This document shows, piece by piece, positions 1,397 to 39,097 of a stretch of DNA of 44,317 bases; positions within the stretch are counted from its first letter, which is position 1, and every line of letters begins with the position of its first letter. The notes under the pieces are model-generated. The model made no database searches, had not been told where the DNA came from, and saw only the letters and a program-made list of their open reading frames with translations. A program made the translations under genes and the position numbers. Origin of the DNA: an uncultured Candidatus Saccharibacteria bacterium (lineage in GTDB: Bacteria; Patescibacteriota; Saccharimonadia; UBA4664; CAYXHD01); NCBI GenBank assembly GCA_964585425.1, contig CAZPDI010000003.1, positions 1-44,317 on the forward strand. The letters are read 5' to 3'.

Positions 1397-2295
1397 AGAT
1401 ACCAAAACTAAACAGCGGTTATATATACGGATTACTGGCTTCAGCAACATTTGCAGTATATCTCTTGATCAACCGCTACATCTACTTGAATTATCATGTT
1501 GATGGGCTGAAATACACCATTACCTTTGCAGTGGCAGGTGGCGTCTTCGCTCTATTTAGCGCACTTCATAACAACATTAAGGGTGATACAAAAATCCCAT
1601 TTAACAAGTCATTACTGCCGGTAATATTCAATGGAATCCTTGCCGGGATTGCCCTCGGTGTATTTGTGTTTGGGCAAAGCTACACCTCGGCAGCAAATGC
1701 TAGTATCCTTGCAACGACAACCATGGCAACAACGGCAGCCTTCTCGTGGTTTCTAATAAAAGGAGATAGATTTCATAGGCGACAACTTGCCTGGTTTGGT
1801 TGTATGTTTGTCGGCCTTTATCTCGCAATTGTAGGGCTTCATACACTTTCTATCAGCAAGGGTGATCTTATCATTCTGGCCTCATGCATCTTGCTCGGCT
1901 TTGTAAACGTTAACTCAAAACTACTCATGAGAAATCATAGCAGTAAAGTAGTTACTGATGTACGTCTTATTAGCGGAGCACTATTCCTGGCAATTGTAGG
2001 GATGGCTCTTTATGGCACAGGTTTCTTGATTACAAATTCCGGACTATTGCCGCTATTAGCTGGATTCTTCTTTTGGCTAACGATTCGTTTCTTCTATGCT
2101 GCCGTAGATCATATTAATCCAAGTCGAGCGATCATCCTTGCTAACATGCACTCGGCAGTTACGCCTATTATTGGTGCGTTGCTGTTGGCTGAGCCTTACG
2201 GCCCACTGAAGTTTGTGGGGGCAGTATTAATCATTATTAGCGTCATTAATATAAACAGCAAAAATCAGTCAAAGAATAAACTTCGGACTACTTAA
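1393..2295 (+). CDS. EamA/DMT-superfamily transporter (about 10 TM helices)
   Basis: GTG start overlaps the trpA stop (GTGA). The 300-aa protein is very hydrophobic, with two-fold repeat-like organisation typical of EamA-domain permeases. Confidence 0.7.
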   Translation: MKIPKLNSGYIYGLLASATFAVYLLINRYIYLNYHVDGLKYTITFAVAGGVFALFSALHNNIKGDTKIPFNKSLLPVIFNGILAGIALGVFVFGQSYTSAANASILATTTMATTAAFSWFLIKGDRFHRRQLAWFGCMFVGLYLAIVGLHTLSISKGDLIILASCILLGFVNVNSKLLMRNHSSKVVTDVRLISGALFLAIVGMALYGTGFLITNSGLLPLLAGFFFWLTIRFFYAAVDHINPSRAIILANMHSAVTPIIGALLLAEPYGPLKFVGAVLIIISVININSKNQSKNKLRTT

Positions 2296-2367
2296 AACAG
2301 TCTGCATATCCGTTAGCATCTTCTCTTCGGTTCGAAACAAGACAACTAGCTGGAGCCAGAGAGCTCA
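2279..2367 (+). repeat. U repeat, full copy A (89 nt); includes the last 17 nt of the EamA CDS
   Basis: Hand alignment to 3551..3639 gives 72/89 identical positions, ungapped (AACTTCGG...AAAAYAGTCTGCATATC...CTTCGGTTCGAAACA...TAGCYGGA...GAGAGCTCA). Confidence 0.85.
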
Positions 2368-2370
2368 ATT

Positions 2371-3405
2371 TTATAACTTCTCGACCCTGTCGAGCATAAA
2401 CTTAACACCAGTATTAGTATTGATTGCTATAATTTCAATCTCAGGATGCCTAGAGTGGAAAACACGAAAGATTTCATCGGCAAAGGCCTGGCCCACCGTT
2501 GGTACCTTGTCAAAGTCTAAGATAATTCGTTTGAACTTGGTAAAATTAGTTAACACACGACGCGCCTGGGATCGCGATACATAAATGGTACCCATAGTGT
2601 AGAGGCGCACAAGCACCTCAGTTTTATCAAAAGCCGGTTCTTCCGGGTCAATTTGATAGTCACGGAATATATCACTCAAATGCAGCTTAGATTTGGTATT
2701 GATGATAAAGGTTACCTTTGTGCCCCTAACTTCTGACTTTACTTCTTCTACAAAGATATCTGGAAGTGTATTGTCGATCCGTAAACGATAGTTATAGCTT
2801 TCTAGTATAAACAAGTTACCTGCCTTTGACGTAAAGAAAATACCTTCACCGGAGTGTGCCTTTGGAGCCGTAGTTGTTTTGCCTTTTAAGAGGTCTTGTA
2901 TCGCCTCAATTTCTGATGCTAGGCCACGTTTATTCATAATGCTTCTAAATACACCAATACCCGAATCCTTCACAATAAAGGCCAGGTTATCTTTTTCTTG
3001 TTTTATCTCTACTTCAATATTCTTGCTCTCAGAGTGTTCTATGGCGTTATTAAGCATTTCAGAAAATGCATAAGCTAAAATACTCTGAACATTTTCTCGG
3101 AGGCTACTGATAAAACCCTTTTCTCTACGTAGGCTATCGAATACCTCGTATTCTTCCAGGTTAGTATTGCTGAGTCGTTTTTTTATGCGCTTTCCTAGCG
3201 TGTCTGCATATCGTGGCAGGGCATAGACCGACCACCGGCCAGAACTTTCTCTTACTAGTACGCCCCGTTCAACCATAGAGTTGATCACCGTGCTGGCGTA
3301 CGAGCGAGTTACGTCATTATTGAGCGCCTCTAGCACATCAGAGGTTTTGAAATGATGTTTCTTATGAGCTACTTCTAGGATGGTATCTTTTATGGTTGAG
3401 GACAT
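2371..3405 (-). CDS. fusion regulator: N-terminal winged-HTH, GHKL (SpoIIAB/RsbW-like) ATPase, C-terminal STAS-like (DUF4325-like) domain
   Basis: RBS AGGAGAAAG lies upstream. N-box EMLNNAIEHS, G1 box KDSGIGV, G2 box SGEGIFF. The C-terminal part (FDKVPTVGQAFADEIFRVF) resembles the DUF4325/STAS-like family, recalled from memory. Confidence 0.6.
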   Translation of the reverse strand: MSSTIKDTILEVAHKKHHFKTSDVLEALNNDVTRSYASTVINSMVERGVLVRESSGRWSVYALPRYADTLGKRIKKRLSNTNLEEYEVFDSLRREKGFISSLRENVQSILAYAFSEMLNNAIEHSESKNIEVEIKQEKDNLAFIVKDSGIGVFRSIMNKRGLASEIEAIQDLLKGKTTTAPKAHSGEGIFFTSKAGNLFILESYNYRLRIDNTLPDIFVEEVKSEVRGTKVTFIINTKSKLHLSDIFRDYQIDPEEPAFDKTEVLVRLYTMGTIYVSRSQARRVLTNFTKFKRIILDFDKVPTVGQAFADEIFRVFHSRHPEIEIIAINTNTGVKFMLDRVEKL

Positions 3406-3440
3406 GACTTTCTCCTATACACATAGTATCAAAAGAGGTT

Positions 3441-3544
3441 TTCTATGTCAACTAGATAATTTTCTATGTCAACTACTATGTTGACCATAAGCGCTCTGGT
3501 TCTATGTCACAGAACTATTTATCTACGTTTGATTCTATGTTGAG
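3441..3544. promoter_or_regulatory. cluster of four TTCTATGT(C/T) direct repeats plus a GTCAAC-N6-GTTGAC palindrome (operator or iteron-like)
   Basis: TTCTATGTCAAC occurs at 3441..3452 and 3462..3473, TTCTATGTCAC at 3500..3510, and TTCTATGTTGAG at 3533..3544. The palindrome spans 3468..3485. The cluster lies immediately upstream of the wHTH regulator gene. Confidence 0.6.
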
Positions 3545-3550
3545 TTATGC

Positions 3551-3639
3551 AACTTCGGCCCACTCAAAATAGTCTGCATATCTGTCAACATCTTTTCTTC
3601 GGTTCGAAACACGCACCTTAGCCGGACCGAGAGAGCTCA
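3551..3639 (+). repeat. U repeat, full copy B (89 nt)
   Basis: Direct repeat of 2279..2367 (see that feature). Confidence 0.85.
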
Positions 3640-4334: not shown

Positions 4335-4367
4335 CCTAAACAGTTTTCATGCTGCTATACTAAACCT

Positions 4368-4745
4368 ATGAAGAAAAAAACGAGTATTCGGCTAGCCATT
4401 ATTGCGGGGATTGTCCTTGTGGCGCTCGGGGGTCTCTTTTACTTCCAGAGCGCAAAAAGAAGCAGCAATACTTTTACCGGCACCGTAACGAGTAGCAAAG
4501 ATTGCTCAGCCAACATCGGCGCTTCCTCGTGCACATGGCAGGTGCAGGTTAACGATACGGATACAAGAACCGTATATTGGAGCCAAACCGTGGGTGCTGA
4601 CAGTAGTGCAACCGGCGGCCCCAGTGGCTTTGAATTTACCGACGATATTACCGGGAAGCAAGTCGAGGTATATGGCGAAAAAACGGGCGATAACAGCTAT
4701 TCGGTGAGTCAAAAAGGTTATTACATTAAACTGACAGAAAATTAG
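4368..4745 (+). CDS. hypothetical membrane-anchored/secreted small protein
   Basis: N-terminal MKKKTSIRLAIIAGIVLVALGGLF signal/anchor. TGCTATACT box lies 6 nt upstream of the ATG. Confidence 0.65.
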   Translation: MKKKTSIRLAIIAGIVLVALGGLFYFQSAKRSSNTFTGTVTSSKDCSANIGASSCTWQVQVNDTDTRTVYWSQTVGADSSATGGPSGFEFTDDITGKQVEVYGEKTGDNSYSVSQKGYYIKLTEN

Positions 4746-5000: not shown

Positions 5001-6518
5001 GTGGTAGCCAAGTTAGCCCTTTCGCTAGCGATAATTATCGTGCTGTTTGGCATCACTTTATCTGCCCAGGCTGCGGGTGAGTCGTTGACTGGGGCTGCTA
5101 GTTACAGCGGTAGTCGGGATGATGCCATCCCTATTAATAACTTGCAGGTCGGCGGCACTGGTAATGACACCGTCACTATAAACCTTTTTGTACCGAGCGG
5201 CACCTTGGCGATGGGGACGACTACCGGTATTACGTTCTCTCGTGATCATACCGGTAAAAATTTACATTTTAGCGGTACGCGCTCCGACGTTAATGCCGCG
5301 CTAGCAACCCTCACGTTTAAACCGGGCAAGACGGCTGACGTACAGCTACAGGTAACCATCGATGGTTTGCCGAACGCCCTGTATGATCCGAGCACGCATC
5401 ACGTATATCAGTTCGTAGACCTTCAGGTTAACTGGAACGAAGCCAAGACTCGTGCCGAATCAGGTACTTTTCAGGATGTGCCCGGGTACCTCACGACCAT
5501 TACCAGCTCACAGGAGGCAAATGTAGTGGCCGGCTTAGGTGTGGGCGGCTGGCTGGGTGGAAGTGACAGTGCTGTAGAAGGCGAGTGGAACTGGGTAGGT
5601 GGCCCCGACGCTGGTACCAATTTTTGGAATGGTGGCGTAGAGGGTACGGCTCCAGATGGAGCTTATACCAACTGGGTCGAAGGCATGCCCGACAATTACA
5701 CCGGATCCAATGAAGCGGGTGAGAATTGTCTACAAATGTACGACGTAGCCGGAGCAATCTCTTTTAAATGGAACGATCAGAACTGTGATAGTGGTGAGGC
5801 GAGTCGCTATATTATTGAATATGGTGGTGATACGACGCCAAGCTTAACCTACAAGAATATTAATATACACGTGACGCCGGGTCGCGATTTAAATAATGAC
5901 GGTACCGAAGATGCCGATCAGCCCAGGGTGGCCAACGTGCAGACTGCTCAGGGCAAGTGGGTGGGCATTGAGCTTAATTATGACTGTGACATTACCTTGG
6001 CTGAGGCCATAGACGAATCGAGCCTTGATGCTCAAGATGCCAATTATGATTATCCGGGTGGCTTGGTGGATTTTGCGGCCGAATGTGGCTACAGCTATAT
6101 GAACACCCAGGTAAAATTGTACTTTTATGATGAGCAGTCGAGCGATATACTGCTGCGCAAGTACAATCCAAATACCCGGCAGTATGCCGATATGACCAGT
6201 TTTATTGCTGCTACCAGTGATCTTACAATTGATGGTCATAATGTCGCGATTTTAACGTATCAAATCACCAGCGAAAACGGGTTAGACGTGGACCCCAATC
6301 CTGATGACAACATCATTGCTGATCCGCTTGGGATTGCCGTGGCGGCCAGTCCGCAGAGCGAAGGCCAAGACGACCAAGGTGCCGGTCAATCATCGCCGAC
6401 TACTACCGCGAGCGGTTTGGCGAGTACGGGTCAAAGCCAAAACCAGCTGGTGGTACTTGCCCTTATGATGCTTGGTGGCGCCAGCATTGCTATTACGAGG
6501 CTCACTGCAAAAAAATAA
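5001..6518 (+). CDS. secreted surface protein with canonical C-type lectin domain and LAxTG (LASTG) cell-wall sorting signal
   Basis: GTG start followed by a signal peptide (...LSAQA/AG). CTLD motifs: GWLGGSD, EGEWNWVGGPD, MPDN, ENCLQM, KWNDQNCD. The C-terminus has LASTG, then a hydrophobic stretch, then RLTAKK. Confidence 0.75.
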   Translation: MVAKLALSLAIIIVLFGITLSAQAAGESLTGAASYSGSRDDAIPINNLQVGGTGNDTVTINLFVPSGTLAMGTTTGITFSRDHTGKNLHFSGTRSDVNAALATLTFKPGKTADVQLQVTIDGLPNALYDPSTHHVYQFVDLQVNWNEAKTRAESGTFQDVPGYLTTITSSQEANVVAGLGVGGWLGGSDSAVEGEWNWVGGPDAGTNFWNGGVEGTAPDGAYTNWVEGMPDNYTGSNEAGENCLQMYDVAGAISFKWNDQNCDSGEASRYIIEYGGDTTPSLTYKNINIHVTPGRDLNNDGTEDADQPRVANVQTAQGKWVGIELNYDCDITLAEAIDESSLDAQDANYDYPGGLVDFAAECGYSYMNTQVKLYFYDEQSSDILLRKYNPNTRQYADMTSFIAATSDLTIDGHNVAILTYQITSENGLDVDPNPDDNIIADPLGIAVAASPQSEGQDDQGAGQSSPTTTASGLASTGQSQNQLVVLALMMLGGASIAITRLTAKK

Positions 6519-7939: not shown

Positions 7940-7958
7940 ACACTTTTTATAACCCTTA

Positions 7959-7967
7959 TGCTATAGT
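7959..7967 (+). promoter_or_regulatory. extended -10 box (TGCTATAGT) 6 nt upstream of the heliorhodopsin ATG (leaderless-type promoter)
   Basis: TATAGT at 7962..7967, spacer aacagt, ATG at 7974. No SD sequence. Confidence 0.55.
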
Positions 7968-7973
7968 AACAGT

Positions 7974-8738
7974 ATGAGTAAAACAATCACTACCACCAGC
8001 CTTAAAAAATTTAATCTGCGCATGGCTATTTTGCACGCGGTGCAGGCCGTGGCCATCGTCGTATTGAGTAAAAGCTTTAGTCTGCCTATTACCGGGAACT
8101 ACTTACGTTTCGATAACGTTACGCAATCGCTACAACCAGCCTCTACCGAGCTATTTAAGCTATCGCTGCCATTGTTGCTCGTGATCTTTTTTGTGCTGTC
8201 AGCACTGGCTCATCTGATTATCGCCACGATATATAACAAGCGCTATAACACAGATCTTAAAAATGGCATTAACAAGGCGCGCTGGATAGAATATTCGCTT
8301 TCGGCCAGCACCATGATGGTGGCTATTAGTTTGCTCGTCGGCATCTACGACTTGGTAAGTCTGGTAATGATCTTTGCCCTAACGGCCGTCATGAACCTCT
8401 GTGGTCTCGTTATGGAGGTGCATAATCAAACTACCAAAAAGACTAATTGGGTAAGTTATTGGATTGGCTGCTTGGCCGGTATTGTTCCGTGGTTTGCCAT
8501 TGCCTTTTATATGTGGCTGGGTGCCGATAAGGGGAGCGCTGCGCCAACCTTTGTATATTGGATCTTTGTTTCGATCTTTGTATTCTTTAACTGCTTTGCC
8601 ATTAATATGGTGTTGCAGTACAAGAAAATCGGGCCATGGAAGGATTACCTGTATGGCGAACGCGCCTACATTATCTTGAGCTTAGTTGCTAAGTCGCTGC
8701 TCGCCTGGCAGGTATTTGCCGGCACATTGCGTCCATAA
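7974..8738 (+). CDS. heliorhodopsin (7-TM, retinal-binding Lys conserved)
   Basis: Strong resemblance to heliorhodopsin 48C12 as I remember it: RWIEYSLSAS (counter-ion Glu), GCLAGIVPW, GERAYIILSLVAKSLLAWQVFAGTL (Schiff-base Lys). Confidence 0.85.
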   Translation: MSKTITTTSLKKFNLRMAILHAVQAVAIVVLSKSFSLPITGNYLRFDNVTQSLQPASTELFKLSLPLLLVIFFVLSALAHLIIATIYNKRYNTDLKNGINKARWIEYSLSASTMMVAISLLVGIYDLVSLVMIFALTAVMNLCGLVMEVHNQTTKKTNWVSYWIGCLAGIVPWFAIAFYMWLGADKGSAAPTFVYWIFVSIFVFFNCFAINMVLQYKKIGPWKDYLYGERAYIILSLVAKSLLAWQVFAGTLRP

Positions 8739-10452: not shown

Positions 10453-10467
10453 CGTAAAATTACCAAC

Positions 10468-10476
10468 TGCTATAAT
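10468..10476 (+). promoter_or_regulatory. extended -10 box (TGCTATAAT) 6 nt upstream of ATG 10483
   Basis: TATAAT at 10471..10476, spacer agacgt, ATG at 10483. Confidence 0.55.
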
Positions 10477-10482
10477 AGACGT

Positions 10483-10749
10483 ATGAATACGCAAGAAATA
10501 CAACAAGGTGTAGTCCATACCGTCCCCGAGGACCTTGAAGCGGCTCTTTTGGCAAGTCCTGCCGCCTTAGCAAAGTGGGATGATATTACGCCATTGGCTC
10601 GCAATGAATGGATATGCTGGACCACCTCTGTTAAGCAGCAAAAAACTCGTGACGAGCACGTCCAGCGGGTGATCCAGGAACTGATTGGCGGTAAGCGCCG
10701 ACCCTGCTGCTGGGCTGGTTGTATTCACCGTAATAAAGGGGATAAATAA
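10483..10749 (+). CDS. YdeI/OmpD-associated family protein (small)
   Basis: The pattern PEDLEAAL...W..ITPLARNEWICW......TR..R resembles the YdeI/OmdA C-terminal domain, recalled from memory. Confidence 0.55.
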   Translation: MNTQEIQQGVVHTVPEDLEAALLASPAALAKWDDITPLARNEWICWTTSVKQQKTRDEHVQRVIQELIGGKRRPCCWAGCIHRNKGDK

Positions 10750-11162: not shown

Positions 11163-11187
11163 AGGGTCCCTGTGCTAGAATAGGGGC

Positions 11188-11388
11188 ATGAGTAAAACTT
11201 CACATGCCCGTCATGAACACAAAAACCGTGAGCATTCAGAATCGCAGGAGATTGTGTCTGCGGAAAATATGAATCAAGATTTTAGTAAGCGCCATAAGGG
11301 TTTAATCATTGCCTTGATTGTAGTAATGATCATTGTGCTGCCATTATTGTTTGCGGCCGCCACATTGTTGCGCATGGTGAATTGGTAG
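11188..11388 (+). CDS. hypothetical small membrane protein
   Basis: TGCTAGAAT box lies 6 nt upstream of the ATG. One C-terminal TM helix. Confidence 0.45.
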   Translation: MSKTSHARHEHKNREHSESQEIVSAENMNQDFSKRHKGLIIALIVVMIIVLPLLFAAATLLRMVNW

Positions 11389-30827: not shown

Positions 30828-30846
30828 AAGTTGCTATACTAGAGGC

Positions 30847-31374
30847 ATGAAACGACGTTACGGACTGATGCTCTTTATTGCTGCCATGGCTATTGTCTTG
30901 CTGGGCTGTAGTCTGTTGGTTAGAAACCGCCAGGAAGCTGCGAATCAGGCCAAGCAAATTATTGTTAATGACCAAGCAGGCGCGAATGTAGAGACCGAGC
31001 TGCTTAAACTTAAGGTGTACGCCGCCAGCCACATGAAGGTAAACGTCCAGTTTACGCTCACAGGTAGTTACAATCGTGCGGTCGAGGCGGCAAAGGCCGA
31101 GGCCAACAAATCAAATGCTACCTATGCCGCGGCGCAGGCCGCCTGCGATAAAAAAGGTGTTGATTCAATCCGGCAGTCAAAGTGTGTGGCCGCCTACATC
31201 GCCGCCAATCCTAGCCCAATGGCCGCTCCTAAAATGCCAGACATAGCAGTGTATCAGCGCAGCTACGTAGGGCCAGCCTGGAGTCTTGACTTGGCTGGTA
31301 TCCTCCTGCTTATTGGCTCGGGATTGGGAATATTTGCCGTCGCCAGTGTTGTACACCGTACTGTTACAAAATAA
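30847..31374 (+). CDS. hypothetical lipoprotein-like protein with C-terminal TM helix
   Basis: Lipobox-like VLLGCS after the signal h-region. TGCTATACT box lies 6 nt upstream of the ATG. Confidence 0.5.
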   Translation: MKRRYGLMLFIAAMAIVLLGCSLLVRNRQEAANQAKQIIVNDQAGANVETELLKLKVYAASHMKVNVQFTLTGSYNRAVEAAKAEANKSNATYAAAQAACDKKGVDSIRQSKCVAAYIAANPSPMAAPKMPDIAVYQRSYVGPAWSLDLAGILLLIGSGLGIFAVASVVHRTVTK

Positions 31375-34835: not shown

Positions 34836-35039
34836 ATGGCATTTTCACACACAAATTCACGTGGTCAAGAATATTTCTTGCACAGCAAAGACGTAACCCT
34901 TAAGGGTGGCCGCGTACAACGTATTTACTTCTTCGCACGCGAAGTTAAGCCCGAAGGTGGCTTGGACGCAGTTCCGGAAGGTATGCAGATCGTCGAGAAC
35001 GAACGAACTGGTCTTCCTATCCTCAAGAAAAAAGCCTAG
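34836..35039 (+). CDS. hypothetical 67-aa protein
   Basis: GAGGGA RBS. Hydrophilic, with a protein-like composition, and followed by a terminator. Confidence 0.55.
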   Translation: MAFSHTNSRGQEYFLHSKDVTLKGGRVQRIYFFAREVKPEGGLDAVPEGMQIVENERTGLPILKKKA

Positions 35040-35061
35040 TTTTTCTAACTAGCACAACAAG

Positions 35062-35090
35062 AGCCGCTGCAGAAGCGGCTTTTTGTTTTG
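35062..35090 (+). terminator. intrinsic terminator
   Basis: AGCCGCT (35062..35068) pairs with AGCGGCT (35074..35080), followed by TTTTGTTTT. Confidence 0.75.
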
Positions 35091-35103
35091 TTAATCGGAT
35101 GAT

Positions 35104-35133
35104 GGTTCGAAACACGCAAGCTAGCCGGAGTCA
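35104..35133 (+). repeat. U repeat, partial copy C (3' part: GGTTCGAAACACGCA..CTAGCCGGAGTCA)
   Basis: Matches the 3' part of copies A and B (2329.. and 3601..). It ends with the 13-nt core CTAGCCGGAGTCA. Confidence 0.75.
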
Positions 35134-35237
35134 TAGTATTGATTTTTTATGAAAATCCTGTATAATATTACAGTTTTGAGTTGATTCCGAATTTCTCACT
35201 ACGAACCCCACATCTCGTCTCGAAAGGACGTTTCACA

Positions 35238-35624
35238 ATGCAGGACCTCGAAGCCCTTCGTAACCCGCTCTACCTCAAGGGCATCACCATGAAGGATCTC
35301 AAGCCTGGGCGTCGGATCAGTCTCATCTGTCCGCATCTCAGCCCGAAGCCCGATCATTACACCATCGCCTCCGTTCCGTACACCAAGCTGGAGCATGAAG
35401 GTGGCGATCTGGAAGGAGTGCTCTGGGTGGAGCTGATCTGGGAAGAGGGCGATATCGCATGCGTGCACTCGCTTGCCGACCTCGGTATCATTCCCTACCC
35501 AAGCGGCCGCTGGAGTACCAACTTCAGCGTCTGGCGTTCTCATGCGGGCTTCGCAGGGCGACAGGTGTGTGACAGTGCGGCGTTCCACGAGGCGCGAGCG
35601 AGGCGTTCCGGCCTCGGGAAGTGA
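35238..35624 (+). CDS. hypothetical 128-aa protein with G/C-ending codon bias (probable recent acquisition)
   Basis: ATG at 35238 lies 10 nt after AAAGGA. In my hand count, 29 of the first 40 codons end in G/C, against 19 of 40 for the neighbouring ABC gene. CTC is the dominant Leu codon. A long antisense ORF (35199..35759) is typical of GC3-rich genes. Confidence 0.5.
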   Translation: MQDLEALRNPLYLKGITMKDLKPGRRISLICPHLSPKPDHYTIASVPYTKLEHEGGDLEGVLWVELIWEEGDIACVHSLADLGIIPYPSGRWSTNFSVWRSHAGFAGRQVCDSAAFHEARARRSGLGK

Positions 35625-35727
35625 GATGAGCGAACTGGTGGTGGTCCCGGTGTCTTGCACACTGGGACCACCCTCGTCCCAAGTCTTTAATGCCATTGAA
35701 GGTTTAGGCTGAGAATAGAAATTTACC

Positions 35728-35758
35728 TCACTCAAAACAGTCTGAGTAGCTGGAGTCA
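35728..35758 (+). repeat. U repeat, partial copy D (5' part TCACTCAAAACAGTCTG joined to TAGCTGGAGTCA)
   Basis: Matches the 5' end of copies A and B and their TAGCYGGAG segment. The internal ~45 nt are missing. Confidence 0.75.
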
Positions 35759-35887
35759 ATCATTAAAAATAACTATTCTCGTTATTGCAAAAAAGTCGCA
35801 ATAAACAAAAAGTAGTTTTATATAGTCGGTGGACTCCTCGAAGAAAAATGGTTTGCTTATCTGGCCGAATCTGTATAATTGTAGGTA

Positions 35888-36652
35888 ATGGCTAAAGCAA
35901 AATCTGTATTAAAGGTTAAGAATCTCAAAAAAGCGTATGGCGACTTTCAGGCCGTCAAGGGTGTCAGTTTTGATGTTGCCCGCGGCGAAGTCTTTGGTAT
36001 TCTCGGGCCAAACGGGGCAGGCAAGACGACCACACTCGAGATGATCGAGGGCATGCGCCCCATTGATAGCGGCAAAGTGACCGTTGACGGTATCGACGTT
36101 GCCAAGGATCCATACAAGGTTAAAGAGAAGATTGGTATACAGCTTCAAAGCTCCAGCTTCTTTGATAACCTTAATCTTGTTGAGCTCCTAAAGCTTTTCG
36201 GTGATCTGTATCACGAAAGTATTCATCCAATGCACTTACTGCGTGAAGTTAATCTGGAAGAAAAAGCCAAGAGTCGAGCTAAAAGCCTGTCCGGTGGCCA
36301 GCGTCAGCGCTTTAGTATCGCGACTACACTTGTGAATCAACCAGTCGTCGTGTTCCTTGATGAACCAACTACTGGGCTCGATCCACAAGCTCGTCGCAAC
36401 CTCTGGGACCTTGTAAAGCAGATCCAGGCTAAAGGCACCACCGTTGTTATTACCACGCATTATATGGAAGAGGCCGAAGTGCTCTGTGATCGTATCGCAA
36501 TTATGGATGATGGCAAGATTGTAGCCCTGGATACGCCCAAGGGTCTAATTGACGATTTGCTTAAACGCGGTTTTAAGCCCCGTAAGACGGTTGCCAAAGC
36601 TACGCTTGAGGATGTCTTCATAGATTTAACTGGCAAGGAGCTGAGGGACTAA
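35888..36652 (+). CDS. ABC transporter ATP-binding protein
   Basis: Walker A GPNGAGKTT, signature LSGGQRQR, Walker B VVFLDEPT, H-loop. Confidence 0.9.
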   Translation: MAKAKSVLKVKNLKKAYGDFQAVKGVSFDVARGEVFGILGPNGAGKTTTLEMIEGMRPIDSGKVTVDGIDVAKDPYKVKEKIGIQLQSSSFFDNLNLVELLKLFGDLYHESIHPMHLLREVNLEEKAKSRAKSLSGGQRQRFSIATTLVNQPVVVFLDEPTTGLDPQARRNLWDLVKQIQAKGTTVVITTHYMEEAEVLCDRIAIMDDGKIVALDTPKGLIDDLLKRGFKPRKTVAKATLEDVFIDLTGKELRD

Positions 36653-37752
36653 TGCATCGTAAATGGCAGGCCTTTAAAAGCCTCACAATCGCCAGTCTTA
36701 AAATGTATTTCCGTAACACTTCGGCGGTGTTCTTTACGCTGGTTATTCCGATTTTCTTGGTCGTCATTTTTGGCGTGCTTAATAACGGCGATGGTAGTGG
36801 CAGCATTCACATAGCGGTGACAAATAAGTCCAATACCGAAATTGCCAAAAACTTTGAAGGCACGCTTAAAAGCATCAAGACCTTTAAGATTGATGACAGC
36901 AGCGAAGCTGATGCCCGCGATAAACTGGGCAAGGGTAAGATCGATCTGCAAGTAGTCATCCCGGCCGACTTTGGAGCTAAGACTTCGACCGGACTCAAGC
37001 CCGGAGCTGTGCAGGCGTATTATAATCAGGCCAAGCCCCAGACTGGGCAAACTGCCGGGCTGATTATCAACCAGGTCGTATCGCAGTTTAATGCTAAGGT
37101 CACGAACGCACCGCAAGTATTCATATTCAAAAGTGAGGGCGTAAAAACCAATAATCTCGGGTACATCGACTATCTGTTACCTGGTATCATCGCCATGACC
37201 ATCATGCAGCTGGGCATTTTTAGCGTGGCATTTGCCTTTATTAGCTTTAAAACCAGCGGTGCCTTGCGACGCATGCAAGCTACGCCGCTGCACCCTATTA
37301 ACTTTATTGCAGCCCAAAGCGTTACTCGCATCTTGATTGGTGTCATGCAAGTTTTGATCTTGCTCGGTATTGGGGTCTACGCCTTTAATATGCACCTCAT
37401 CGGCAGCTTGTTTAACATGATCGCTATGGCACTGATTGGTATCGTGACGTTCTTGGCCTTTGGCTTTGGCATTGCTGGGTGGGCGAAGGACGAGAACCAA
37501 GCTGCCCCCGTGGCCAACCTCATCTCGTTCCCAATGTTGTTCTTGAGCGGTACCTTCTTCCCGCGCGAGTCCTTTCCGGAATACCTCAAAAAGATCACCG
37601 ATGTCTTGCCGCTAACGTTCTTGGCTGACGGCTTGCGTCGCATTGCTAACGAGGGCGCCACGCTCTGGACGGTCCGCGGTGACATCCTAGGCCTAGCTAT
37701 TTGGGCAGTCATCGCCTTCTTTATTGCCATACGTGTCTTTAAATGGGAATAG
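36652..37752 (+). CDS. ABC-2-type transporter permease
   Basis: The start overlaps the ATPase gene stop (TAATG). N-terminal TM helix, a large extracytoplasmic loop, then 5 TM helices (ABC-2 layout). Confidence 0.8.
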   Translation: MHRKWQAFKSLTIASLKMYFRNTSAVFFTLVIPIFLVVIFGVLNNGDGSGSIHIAVTNKSNTEIAKNFEGTLKSIKTFKIDDSSEADARDKLGKGKIDLQVVIPADFGAKTSTGLKPGAVQAYYNQAKPQTGQTAGLIINQVVSQFNAKVTNAPQVFIFKSEGVKTNNLGYIDYLLPGIIAMTIMQLGIFSVAFAFISFKTSGALRRMQATPLHPINFIAAQSVTRILIGVMQVLILLGIGVYAFNMHLIGSLFNMIAMALIGIVTFLAFGFGIAGWAKDENQAAPVANLISFPMLFLSGTFFPRESFPEYLKKITDVLPLTFLADGLRRIANEGATLWTVRGDILGLAIWAVIAFFIAIRVFKWE

Positions 37753-37768
37753 CATATAACCCCCGGAC

Positions 37769-37777
37769 TGCTATAAT
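37769..37777 (+). promoter_or_regulatory. extended -10 box (TGCTATAAT) 6 nt upstream of ATG 37784
   Basis: TATAAT at 37772..37777, spacer taaggt, ATG at 37784. Confidence 0.55.
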
Positions 37778-37783
37778 TAAGGT

Positions 37784-38212
37784 ATGAAGAAATTTTTTAC
37801 GAATTATAGTCTGTATATTGCTTTCGGTATCTCGCTGGCGGCTTCACTTATTAGCTTGAGCTTGAGCGAAATCTTTCATTTGCCGCCATGTGTGCTTTGC
37901 TGGTATCAGCGCTCGATGATGTACGCCATCCCATTTATTCTTGGCATCGGCATTTATTACAAAGATAAATTCGTGGATCGTTACGTGTGGCCACTAGCGA
38001 CCATTGGCTGGATAATTGCGCTTTATCATACTTTACTGCAGTGGAAGATTTTGCCGGAGTCGGTGGCGCCCTGCCAAGCGGGCATTAGTTGTACCACCGT
38101 ACAGATCAATTATTTTGGATTCATGACCATTCCCTTTGGCTCACTCGTGGCCTTTAGCGGAATTTTAATCAGTTTATACTTGTATAGGAGGTTTAATGGA
38201 AAAAGAAACTAA
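37784..38212 (+). CDS. disulfide-bond formation protein B (BdbC/DsbB family)
   Basis: Four TM helices, the CVLCWYQR CxxC motif, and a second Cys pair (C..GISC) in the distal loop. Confidence 0.8.
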   Translation: MKKFFTNYSLYIAFGISLAASLISLSLSEIFHLPPCVLCWYQRSMMYAIPFILGIGIYYKDKFVDRYVWPLATIGWIIALYHTLLQWKILPESVAPCQAGISCTTVQINYFGFMTIPFGSLVAFSGILISLYLYRRFNGKRN

Positions 38213-38893: not shown

Positions 38894-38981
38894 GGGCGTG
38901 TGGCGGAATTGGTAGACGCGCTCAACTACCACTTGAGTATTACATTGTAATGTGTGGGTTCGAGTCCCATCATGCTCACCA
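38894..38981 (+). tRNA. type II (long variable arm) tRNA with Leu-type D-arm, A73 and encoded CCA, but anticodon ACC
   Basis: Hand-folded cloverleaf. Acceptor GGGCGTG/CATGCTC has 2 G-U pairs. The D-arm TGGCGGAATTGGTAGACGCG is identical to E. coli tRNA-Leu as I remember it. The anticodon stem is CTCAA/TTGAG with loop CTACCAC (anticodon at 38928..38930). The variable arm is ATTAC-ATT-GTAAT. The T-arm is GTGGG-TTCGAGT-CCCAT. Confidence 0.7.
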
Positions 38982-39028: not shown

Positions 39029-39043
39029 ACTCAACTACCACTT
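39029..39043 (+). repeat. exact 15-nt copy of the tRNA anticodon arm (CTCAACTACCACTTG)
   Basis: Identical to 38921..38935. Weaker similarity extends about 12 nt upstream (TT..TAGA....). Confidence 0.85.
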
Positions 39044-39097
39044 GTGATAATAAGTATACTTTAATGGCTCTGTTTAATCAATGCAAAGTCAATTCAA

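What the first reader, a model, noticed from the sequence alone, without database searches (positions are those of the whole stretch)
35104..35758. Gene with foreign codon usage inserted between partial U copies and flanked by a 12-13-nt direct repeat
Seen in sequence: CTAGCCGGAGTCA (35121..35133) and TAGCTGGAGTCA (35747..35758) flank a 613-bp insert.
- The left flank is the 3' part of U (GGTTCGAAACACGCA...).
- The right flank is the 5' part of U (TCACTCAAAACAGTCTG) fused directly to the core.
- The interior has its own TATAAT, one 128-aa ORF, and a 9-bp GC hairpin.
- The ORF has 29 of its first 40 codons ending in G/C, against 19 of 40 in the adjacent ABC gene (my hand counts). It uses CTC almost exclusively for Leu, and a 186-aa antisense ORF is open across it.

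Inference: this looks like a recently acquired cassette from a GC-richer donor, placed by the same U-associated mechanism as at 2.3-3.6 kb. If the organism is an episymbiont of Actinobacteria, the host would be a plausible donor, but that is speculation.
Basis: partly seen in the sequence, partly recalled or inferred. Interest (0 to 1): 0.65.

Follow-up and report, generated by a model that had tools for sequence, protein, structure and literature searches.

The report
Strain-variable single-gene cassette in Saccharibacteria
A 625-base, self-contained gene of foreign composition sits in a hot spot for gene gain in a wastewater Saccharibacterium, flanked by a repeated 27-base site; it is a genuine recent insertion, but there is no sign that it came from the bacterium's actinobacterial host.

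Summary
A 625-bp unit (35134-35758) has its own promoter, a 128-aa ORF (GC3 0.73 against 0.48 +/- 0.05 for the other window genes) and a 14-bp GC hairpin. It lies between a conserved 67-aa gene and an ABC operon.

Both junctions carry the bipartite motif TCRAAACA-N12-GGAGYCA. The only other copies in the window are the two U repeats at 2.3-3.6 kb.

Independent assemblies from at least six runs span the junctions. Relatives carry an empty site, and other strains and species carry different single-gene inserts at the same place, so the insertion is real and recent.

The ORF is not an orphan. Exhaustive HMMER finds a rare family at 30-47% identity. Where context could be read, each relative is a solitary, self-promoted gene with a GC hairpin, usually GC3-rich, sitting between conserved genes in about 50% GC genomes. 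The sites are 3' of tmRNA, rplL/next gene, and rpsH/rplF. This argues against a fresh import from Actinobacteria and for a mobile gene circulating in genomes of this kind.

A second strain shows an unrelated GC-rich cassette between the same kind of sites, next to the U-flanked gene, forming an array.

No recombinase is in the window. The mechanism (site-directed or short-homology recombination, then spread by transformation) is inferred. Protein function is unknown.

The parts
34836..35039 (+). Conserved 67-aa gene (p67), left anchor of the hot spot
   Evidence: No Pfam match. It lies upstream of the ABC ATPase gene in 19 of 22 genome loci fetched with the permease (20 titled or labelled Saccharibacteria/Saccharimonadia or unnamed, 1 Parcubacteria, 1 Berkelbacteria), once inverted, at distances from 87 nt to 4.5 kb.
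35059..35083 (+). Intrinsic terminator of p67; all alleles diverge just after it (about 35089)
   Evidence: Terminator scan and fold of -21.6 kcal/mol, z -5.2. Alternative alleles break at 35088/35089.
35104..35133 (+). Left U-derived site: GGTTCGAAAC part plus core TAGCCGGAGTCA (bipartite motif 35107-35133)
   Evidence: nhmmer against the U profile, E = 3.6e-4. Motif search. The empty allele L030 keeps one degenerate copy, GGTTCGTAAC...GGAGTC.
35134..35758 (+). Inserted cassette as delimited by the repeat (625 bp, counting one copy of the site)
   Evidence: Absent from L030/L033 and from the more distant L024/L025. Direct-repeat spacing is 625. Compositional outlier.
35139..35166 (+). Cassette promoter TTGATT-16-TATAAT; the -35 box starts 5 nt after the core
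   Evidence: Promoter scan, 10 of 12 matches. The sister cassette in L046 has the same 5-nt spacing from core to -35 (GGAGCCA-GATAC-TTGACT). An RNA-seq-labelled contig starts at 35180.
35238..35624 (+). 128-aa ORF, member of a rare uncharacterised family of small beta-rich proteins
   Evidence: GC3 > GC1 > GC2, as expected of real coding sequence. Eight further matches by exhaustive searches: seven by phmmer, of which six are used as relatives and one (P0006) is a repetitive sequence set aside, plus P0029 from a profile search. Eleven invariant residues. AF2 model with the alignment: pLDDT 75.7, five strands and a C-terminal helix. No Pfam, PHROG, PADLOC or PDB match.
35640..35672 (+). 14-bp GC-rich hairpin without a T-run, followed by CGTCCCAAGTCTTTA (35675-35689)
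   Evidence: Fold of -29.3 kcal/mol, z -3.7. A similar hairpin and a 15-nt motif follow the unrelated ORF of the L046 cassette (13 of 15 identical; local-alignment p = 0.0045).
35732..35758 (+). Right copy of the bipartite site (TCAAAACA-N12-GGAGTCA); core TAGCTGGAGTCA at 35747-35758
   Evidence: It resembles the 5' part of U by eye (my hand count 15 of 17 to U2). By profile the match is weak (E = 0.45).
35759..35887 (+). Resident upstream region and promoter of the ABC operon
   Evidence: 91% identical to the empty allele L030 over 35759-35800. Read from the sequence: TATAAT at 35874-35879, 8 nt before the ATG.
35888..37752 (+). ABC-2 transporter ATPase and permease, right anchor of the hot spot
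   Evidence: Pfam ABC_tran, ABC2_membrane_3. Synteny.
2279..2367 (+). U1, full 89-nt copy of the repeat, directly after the EamA gene
2371..3405 (-). HATPase_c + DUF4325 gene between U1 and U2; AT-rich, top tetranucleotide outlier of the window
   Evidence: Pfam. Tetranucleotide z up to 4.4. In strain L046 its left neighbour is different, and the breakpoint falls exactly at the GGTTCGAAAC part of U1 (position 2329).
3551..3639 (+). U2, second full copy of the repeat

Best explanation
Positions 35134-35758 are a small mobile accessory cassette. It has a promoter, a 71-nt leader, a 128-aa gene and a GC hairpin. It has entered the intergenic hot spot between the 67-aa gene and the ABC operon of a wastewater Saccharibacterium.

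**Proposed insertion step.** The incoming DNA and the chromosome each carried a copy of a 27-nt bipartite site, TCRAAACA-N12-GGAGYCA, which is the 3' end of the U repeat. Exchange happened within or beside the 12-nt core, which left one copy of the site on each side of the insert. The enzyme is not in the cassette or in the window, so it must act in trans. It could be a dedicated or housekeeping recombinase, or RecA-type short-homology joining of DNA taken up by natural competence.

**Spread.** Once in place, the allele can spread between strains by transformation and homologous recombination in the conserved flanking genes. This would explain why occupied, empty and differently filled alleles coexist in the same samples.

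**The gene.** It belongs to a rare family whose members, where context could be read, are solitary and self-promoted, carry a GC hairpin, are usually GC3-rich, and are wedged between conserved genes of about 50% GC genomes that look like CPR bacteria. It therefore behaves like a phage 'moron' or selfish islet circulating in genomes of this kind, not like a fresh import from the host.

**Shown:** the insertion polymorphism, the junction support, the composition, the repeated site, the protein family and its contexts.

**Inferred:** the crossover position, a circular or linear intermediate, the enzyme, and the role of transformation. The protein's function is unknown; it models as a small beta-barrel-like fold.
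For: **The insertion is real.**
- A 905-bp contig of an independent assembly equals 34991-35895 exactly.
- Contigs from runs X2, X4, X5, X6, X12 and from ERZ650252 span one or both junctions.

**The site is polymorphic.**
- Empty site in L030/L033, which are 96% identical in the left flank.
- Empty site in L024/L025.
- A 1173-nt alternative insert in the same sample, at depth 8.5 against 15.9.
- Further joints in X3 and X6.
- Different single-gene inserts in L002, L003 and L026.

**The composition is foreign.**

**The repeated site.**
- 4 hits against 0.23 expected, which are exactly the four cassette boundaries.
- 27-nt direct repeat.

**Sister case, L046.**
- An unrelated 179-aa ORF (GC 0.607, GC3 0.82) has a promoter 5 nt after the core, a GC hairpin and a similar 3' motif.
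- It is flanked by GGGGAGCCAGA on both sides.
- It abuts the U-flanked HATPase gene, giving site-cassette-site-cassette-site.

**Protein family and contexts.**

**Competence.** Saccharibacteria are naturally competent and integrate DNA at intergenic sites by homologous recombination (PMC10633639).
Against: - No integrase, transposase or other recombinase is found among the 47 window ORFs.
- The core repeat is only 12 nt with one mismatch. The 15 nt before the core agree at only 8 positions (my count from the two copies), so it is not a fresh target duplication.
- The empty allele is only 62% identical across the site, so the pre-insertion sequence cannot be reconstructed exactly.
- Other alleles (L002, L003, L026, and the alternative contig) begin at about 35089, not at the core. 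That pattern fits whole-region replacement better than site-specific entry.
- Family members elsewhere show no significant flanking repeats. The exception is a 9-nt copy of the tmRNA 3' end in L036, which is at chance length.
- U is low-copy, with three full copies in the richest metagenome. It does not fold.
- The taxonomy of the relatives' genomes is inferred, not established.
Confidence: 0.6

Rival explanations
1. Pure allele replacement, as in minimal mobile elements. The whole intergenic region is swapped between strains by transformation and homologous recombination in p67 and the ABC genes. The U-like repeats are incidental remnants with no role in insertion.
For: - All alternative alleles diverge at the same left point (35088/35089) and rejoin near the ABC promoter (35832-35886).
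- The gap is variable across Saccharibacteria.
- Natural competence and homologous-recombination insertion are demonstrated in the phylum (PMC10633639).
- No mobility gene is present.
Against: - It does not explain how each cassette first arose.
- It does not explain why the window and L030 share one backbone that differs only by an insert bounded by the bipartite site.
- It does not explain why that site marks all four boundaries of the two compositional outliers, or why the pattern recurs in L046.
Confidence: 0.25
2. One reading: a very recent transfer from a GC-rich donor, plausibly the actinobacterial host of the episymbiont.
For: - ORF GC 0.61 and GC3 0.73.
- The hairpin lacks a T-run.
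- Other cargo in this hot spot is also GC-rich: L003 0.59, L019 0.61-0.64, L023 0.61-0.67.
Against: - No close homologue anywhere.
- All six relatives whose context could be read lie in 49-53% GC contigs.
- Relatives are 30-47% identical, yet most are GC3-rich (0.57-0.79). The bias therefore travels with the family rather than marking one recent donor.
- The promoter, leader and 3' end are native-like in composition.
Confidence: 0.08
3. A native gene lost in relatives. The direct repeats mediated deletion, and the unusual composition reflects the protein's amino-acid content or its expression level.
For: Flanking direct repeats can drive deletion. RNA-seq-labelled contigs cover parts of the cassette.
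Against: - GC3, not only GC1/GC2, is the outlier.
- Neighbouring species have unrelated genes or nothing at the site.
- Family members occupy unrelated loci in other genomes.
- The empty allele is not the product of a precise repeat-mediated deletion.
Confidence: 0.05
4. An assembly chimera that joins a GC-rich fragment of another organism into a Saccharibacteria contig.
For: In runs X10 and X20, interior fragments of the insert appear as short low-depth contigs without cassette-bearing flanks.
Against: Both junctions are reproduced with 100% identity in separate assemblies from several studies and years, at depths like the flanks.
Confidence: 0.02

Closest known systems
Minimal mobile elements (MMEs) of Neisseria (Saunders & Snyder 2002; Snyder 2007, as cited in PMC3787668)
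   Same: A region between two specific conserved genes differs in gene content and composition among the closest relatives. It carries no mobility genes and occurs in a naturally competent lineage.
   Different: Here one allele differs from its nearest empty allele by a discrete unit bounded by a repeated 27-nt site. That site also bounds another foreign gene 32 kb away. MMEs need no such site.
Phage 'morons' (my own knowledge: a gene with its own promoter and terminator, and often deviant GC, inserted between genes that are adjacent in related phages)
   Same: Promoter + one ORF + hairpin, deviant GC, inserted between genes that are adjacent in relatives.
   Different: It sits in a bacterial chromosome, no phage genes are nearby, and there is no match in the phage collections.
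Integron gene cassettes / attC arrays
   Same: Single-gene units separated by a recurring short site, arranged in an array in L046. Cargo is unrelated and the enzyme would act in trans.
   Different: The site is not an imperfect palindrome and does not fold. The cassettes carry their own promoters. One cassette is in the opposite orientation. No IntI, attI or Pc lies within 44 kb.
Genomic islets integrated at tRNA/tmRNA 3' ends
   Same: Relatives P0002 and P0004 begin immediately after the CCA end of a tmRNA gene. In L036 a 9-nt copy of that end follows the cassette. U has a GGTTCGAA, T-loop-like word, and U1 ends in CCA.
   Different: No integrase, and no tRNA or tmRNA at either window locus. 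U has no Rfam match. Only U1 shows a weak similarity to a foreign tmRNA 3' region (p = 0.008; U2 p = 0.71).

Membership tests
Minimal mobile element (variable region between conserved flanking genes) | The same two conserved genes flank regions of different gene content and composition in the closest relatives | tested here: met
   Occupied, empty and alternative alleles lie between p67 and the ABC ATPase in the same and related populations.
Minimal mobile element (variable region between conserved flanking genes) | No mobility genes or transposon ends of its own | tested here: met
   The single ORF has no Pfam or PADLOC hit. No significant terminal inverted repeats.
Minimal mobile element (variable region between conserved flanking genes) | Exchange by transformation and homologous recombination in the flanks | not testable with these tools
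   Competence is shown for cultured Saccharibacteria (PMC10633639), not for this organism.
Integron gene cassette | attC site: an imperfect inverted repeat that folds as a hairpin, with RYYYAAC / GTTRRRY cores | tested here: not met
   U and the junction sites fold no better than shuffles on either strand (z -0.2 to +0.5). Reading the sequence, no attC-type cores are present.
Integron gene cassette | Mostly promoterless cassettes expressed from Pc, next to intI and attI | tested here: not met
   The cassette has its own promoter. No tyrosine recombinase lies within the 44-kb window. The rest of the genome was not available.
Insertion sequence / MITE | Terminal inverted repeats and an identical target-site duplication; a transposase for autonomous copies | tested here: not met
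   No terminal inverted repeats at the ends; the best internal pair (11 of 12) is at chance level. The flanking repeat is imperfect and part of a pre-existing site. No transposase.
tRNA/tmRNA-targeting integrative island | Integrase gene, and insertion into the 3' end of a tRNA or tmRNA gene with duplication of that end | tested here: not met
   No tRNA or tmRNA at 35.1 kb or at 2.3-3.6 kb, and no integrase. Two relatives of the ORF do sit 3' of a tmRNA gene.
Xer/dif-dependent elements (IMEX, pdif modules) | 28-nt dif-like site with two 11-nt partially palindromic arms around a 6-nt spacer | not tested
   By inspection the bipartite site has non-palindromic halves 12 nt apart. No dif model was available, and the organism's own dif site is unknown.
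Known protein family for the 128-aa ORF | Significant match to a curated profile or a solved structure | tested here: not met
   - Pfam, PHROGs and PADLOC: none.
- PDB by sequence: E = 0.68.
- PDB by fold: E >= 0.2.
- BFVD: only borderline hits to uncharacterised phage proteins (E 1.5e-3, TM 0.46-0.50).

The most novel reading that the evidence does not exclude
Saccharibacteria (and perhaps other CPR bacteria) may have a cassette-capture system of their own. In it, single-gene units carrying their own promoters are inserted, stacked and exchanged at a non-hairpin bipartite 27-nt site (TCRAAACA-N12-GGAGYCA) by a recombinase encoded elsewhere in the genome. The cargo would be a pool of GC3-rich orphan genes, able to settle even inside the ribosomal-protein operon and next to tmRNA.
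Probability: 0.2. Interest if true: 0.8.

Novelty: new variant of a known kind. Interest (0 to 1): 0.55.

Why it matters
Saccharibacteria have tiny genomes and depend on a host, and little is known about how they gain genes.

This locus shows gene gain at single-gene resolution: occupied, empty and alternative alleles coexist in the same wastewater communities. It also points to a short recurring site that marks where foreign genes enter. If that site is a true recombination target, it would be a natural landing pad. It could be used for genetics in the cultivable, naturally competent members of the phylum.

The gene family itself is unusual. Its members are rare, mostly keep a high GC3 inside genomes of about 50% GC, and are tolerated between some of the most conserved genes known. 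This raises the question of what these genes do for, or to, their carriers.

Tried and rejected
**Searches that found nothing**
- Word-indexed protein search: only the protein itself.
- tblastn of the ORF against phages and plasmids.
- tblastn of sister cargo against phages and plasmids.
- Family profile in IMG/VR and in JGI metagenomes.
- A 23-nt U pattern in JGI metagenomes.

**U as a structured RNA: rejected**
- No Rfam match, even at E = 10.
- Folding z is about 0 on both strands.

**U as a decayed tRNA or tmRNA 3' end: unresolved**
- No similarity to the two window tRNAs.
- Only U1 aligns to a foreign tmRNA (p = 0.008), and U2 does not.

**U as a high-copy dispersed repeat: rejected.** Only three full copies are present in the richest run.

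**Antisense 186-aa ORF as a gene: rejected.** It is not open in most relatives.

**Structure and flanking repeats**
- A single-sequence AF2 model was useless (pLDDT 36).
- A general target duplication around family members elsewhere was not found.

**Steps the tools would not allow or could not complete**
- The 1173-nt alternative insert seen in X1 could not be fetched.
- The taxonomy of the relatives' contigs could not be obtained; cluster look-up gave no names.
Full report
**1. What is in the sequence**

The window has about 47% GC, and its conserved genes place it in Saccharibacteria. The ABC permease is 82% and 78% identical to those of two Saccharibacteria MAGs, and nearly all of the 22 related genome loci carry Saccharibacteria-type titles.

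The repeat TAGCCGGAGTCA / TAGCTGGAGTCA is found at 35122 and 35747, with a third near-copy inside the U1 repeat. That is 3 hits against 0.28 expected.

The repeat is longer than reported. The repeat finder returns a 27-nt direct repeat, 35107-35133 / 35732-35758, 70% identical and spaced 625 nt. The bipartite pattern TCRAAACA-N12-GGAGYCA occurs four times in 44 kb against 0.23 expected. The four hits are U1, U2 and the two junctions of the insert, all on the + strand.

U itself is an 89-nt repeat at 2279-2367 and 3551-3639, 81% identical, bracketing a minus-strand HATPase_c/DUF4325 gene. The left junction matches the 3' part of a U profile (E = 3.6e-4). The right junction's match to the 5' part is weak (E = 0.45).

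**2. Composition**

- The 35201-35600 bin has the highest GC of the window, 0.595.
- The 128-aa ORF has GC 0.607 and GC3 0.727. The other 46 ORFs average 0.478 +/- 0.029 and 0.481 +/- 0.053, giving z = 4.4 and 4.6. The order GC3 > GC1 > GC2 is that expected of real coding sequence.
- Leu is CTC in 9 of 14 codons, against 14% in the background. 29 of the first 40 codons end in G/C, against 18 in the ABC gene.
- A synonymous-codon likelihood is less extreme (z = -1.8).
- In tetranucleotide space, the two most deviant stretches of the window are the two U-bounded inserts. The AT-rich HATPase gene reaches z = 4.4 and this cassette z = 3.6.

The insert carries these elements:
- a TTGATT-16-TATAAT promoter at 35139-35166;
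- a 71-nt leader with AAGGA (read);
- a 14-bp hairpin at 35640-35672 (-29.3 kcal/mol, z -3.7) without a T-run.

The 186-aa antisense ORF is open in only one of the six relatives examined, so it is a side effect of GC3-rich coding.

**3. It is a real and polymorphic insertion**

An independent 905-bp assembly contig equals 34991-35895 base for base. Contigs from runs X2, X4, X5, X6 and X12, and from an ENA assembly (L029), cross one or both junctions.

In the same sample a second contig, at depth 8.5 against 15.9, shares 34991-35089 and 35832-35895 but has 1173 other bases in between. Runs X3 and X6 show further joints, 35088>35834 and 35089>35763.

Contigs that encode the identical 67-aa protein show these states:
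- Empty sites in two ENA assemblies (L030, L033). These are 96% identical in the left flank and 91% just right of the site.
- An empty site in a more distant species (L024, L025).
- A 256-aa hydrolase in another (L026).

The two nearest MAG species carry unrelated single ORFs of 151 and 237 aa, each with what looks by eye like its own promoter and terminal hairpin.

The 67-aa gene lies upstream of the ABC ATPase gene in 19 of the 22 genome loci, once inverted. The distance between them ranges from 87 nt to 4.5 kb. The region is therefore a hot spot, and several of its occupants are GC-rich.

The empty allele reads GGTTCGTAAC...GGAGTC once. The occupied allele has the site on both sides.

**4. 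The gene**

The word-indexed search found only the protein itself. The exhaustive phmmer search of 1.84 billion representatives gave seven further matches. One (P0006) is a repetitive sequence that I set aside, leaving six relatives: three at 45-47% identity (E from 9e-29 to 1e-14) and three more distant. A profile search added one more, P0029.

The alignment has 11 invariant residues. With it, AF2 gives pLDDT 75.7 and pTM 0.70, with five strands and a C-terminal helix.

There is no Pfam, PHROG, PADLOC or PDB match. Fold search gives only generic small barrels in the PDB, and borderline hits to uncharacterised proteins of about 125-135 aa from large phages (E 1.5e-3, TM about 0.5). Function is unknown.

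**5. Where the relatives live**

- P0002 and P0004 start directly after the CCA end of a tmRNA gene.
- P0003 lies between rplL and the next gene, unnamed here and rpoB by position.
- P0005 and P0029 lie on the opposite strand between rpsH and rplF, inside a ribosomal-protein operon. That operon runs S5-L15 with no L30 called between them, a trait of CPR bacteria by my own knowledge.
- P0007 follows an epimerase gene; I did not read its promoter or hairpin.

In the five tmRNA and ribosomal-gene contexts above, the gene stands alone, has a TATAAT-type promoter and a long GC hairpin, and is richer in GC than its setting. Across all six relatives whose context was read, gene GC is 0.54-0.63 and GC3 0.57-0.79, in contigs of 0.49-0.53 GC. 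L036 is the weak case: gene GC 0.542 against a locus GC of 0.526, and GC3 0.565 against flanking genes at 0.676 and 0.468.

No member was found in a GC-rich genome, a phage or a plasmid. The GC bias therefore travels with the family rather than marking one recent donor. This weakens the host-donor idea.

**6. The link with U**

In a freshwater strain (L046) the HATPase gene and U2 are 99.7% identical to the window, but the sequence to the left changes exactly at the GGTTCGAAAC part of U1. There L046 has, in order:
- a reverse transcriptase that looks DGR-type by eye, with an AAC-rich stretch upstream;
- a diverged U ending in GGGGAGCCAGA;
- a promoter whose -35 box starts 5 nt after that core, the same spacing as in the window cassette;
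- an unrelated 179-aa ORF with GC 0.607 and GC3 0.82;
- a GC hairpin without a T-run;
- CGACCTAAGTCTTTA (the window has CGTCCCAAGTCTTTA; local alignment p = 0.0045);
- the site GGTTCGAAACACGTCCAGTAGGGGGAGCCAGA.

This gives site-cassette-site-cassette-site.

U is low-copy, with three full copies in the richest run. It does not fold and has no Rfam match. None of the 47 window ORFs is a recombinase.

**7. Mechanism**

The junction pattern is what a reciprocal exchange between two similar sites would leave. One site would be chromosomal: GGTTCGAAACACGCAAGC-TAGCCGGAGTCA-ATCATT. The other would be on the incoming DNA: CACTCAAAACAGTCTGAG-TAGCTGGAGTCA-TAGTATT. The crossover would lie in or next to GGAGTCA. 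The one mismatch in the core then keeps its parental side, as observed.

It is not a fresh target duplication, because the 15 nt before the core agree at only 8 positions (my count from the copies).

I cannot separate a site-specific enzyme acting in trans from short-homology joining of DNA taken up by competence. Saccharibacteria are naturally competent and integrate DNA by homologous recombination at intergenic sites (PMC10633639).

The other alleles replace the whole interval from about 35089 to the ABC promoter. That fits exchange through the flanking genes, as in the minimal mobile elements of Neisseria (PMC3787668).

My reading is a two-step history: entry at the U-type site, then spread by flank-mediated recombination.

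**8. Expression**

Contigs from four RNA-seq-labelled wastewater runs cover parts of the cassette. One starts at 35180, about 14 nt after the -10 box. These are assembled contigs at low depth, and DNA carry-over cannot be excluded, so this is only a hint.

**9. Verdict**

The insert is a recent cassette of foreign composition tied to U-type sites, but there is no evidence for an actinobacterial or other GC-rich donor.
- It is closest to minimal mobile elements and phage morons. It fails the defining tests for integron cassettes, IS/MITEs and tRNA-targeting islands.
- The recurring bipartite site, and the habit of this gene family of settling between highly conserved genes, are the features worth following.

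Noticed in passing
window 7974-8738: A heliorhodopsin gene (Pfam PF18761, E = 2.5e-100) in this Saccharibacteria contig.
   Followed up: no
window 38894-38981 and 39031-39045: ARAGORN and Rfam call a tRNA that has a Leu-type body (long variable arm, GGCGGAATTGGTAGACGC D-arm) but the anticodon ACC. Its anticodon stem-loop, CTCAACTACCACTTG, is repeated about 50 nt downstream of the gene.
   Followed up: partly
window 2371-3405 (-) and 3437-3545: The U1/U2-flanked HATPase_c + DUF4325 gene is AT-rich and is the window's strongest tetranucleotide outlier. By eye, its upstream region holds about five copies of TTCTATGT, which looks like an operator array.
   Followed up: partly
L046 1-1990; window 5001-6518: A freshwater strain has a 340-aa reverse transcriptase with LGNITSQ (DGR-like by eye) and an AAC-rich repeat-like stretch beside a diverged U. 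The window encodes a 505-aa protein with a weak C-type lectin match that could be a DGR target.
   Followed up: no
L048 48-449; L052 6110-6511: Relatives of the ORF sit on the opposite strand between rpsH and rplF inside the ribosomal-protein operon, together with a second small ORF (58-62 aa). The genome's operon has no L30 gene called.
   Followed up: partly
L036 5537-5924 and about 6584; L043: Two relatives of the ORF begin right after the CCA end of a tmRNA gene. In L036 the 9-mer GCTCCACCA recurs downstream of the cassette. It is at chance length but in a telling position.
   Followed up: partly
L023 3422-4459 (-): Cargo in the same hot spot of another Saccharibacterium is a 345-aa Thr-rich protein with GC 0.667. 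It ends in LACTG, a hydrophobic stretch and a basic tail, which looks like an LAxTG sortase signal.
   Followed up: no
window 4351-4372, 7954-7984, 10466-10487, 11168-11198, 30830-30851, 35871-35890, 37767-37788: Several resident genes have a TGnTATAAT-type box only 6-8 nt before the ATG, which looks leaderless. The inserted cassette instead has a 71-nt leader with a Shine-Dalgarno-like AAGGA.
   Followed up: no
window 35170-35181 vs 35730-35741; 35137-35152 vs 35760-35775: There are inverted copies (11 of 12 and 13 of 16) between the start of the cassette and the sequence at or after its right end. By my estimate they are at chance level in AT-rich DNA.
   Followed up: partly
L030 about 370-460; window 35752-35832: By eye, in the empty allele the core GAGGAGTC has a perfect inverted copy, GACTCCTC, about 75 nt downstream, just before the ABC promoter. 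The window keeps 6 of these bases. This may be an operator of the ABC operon.
   Followed up: no
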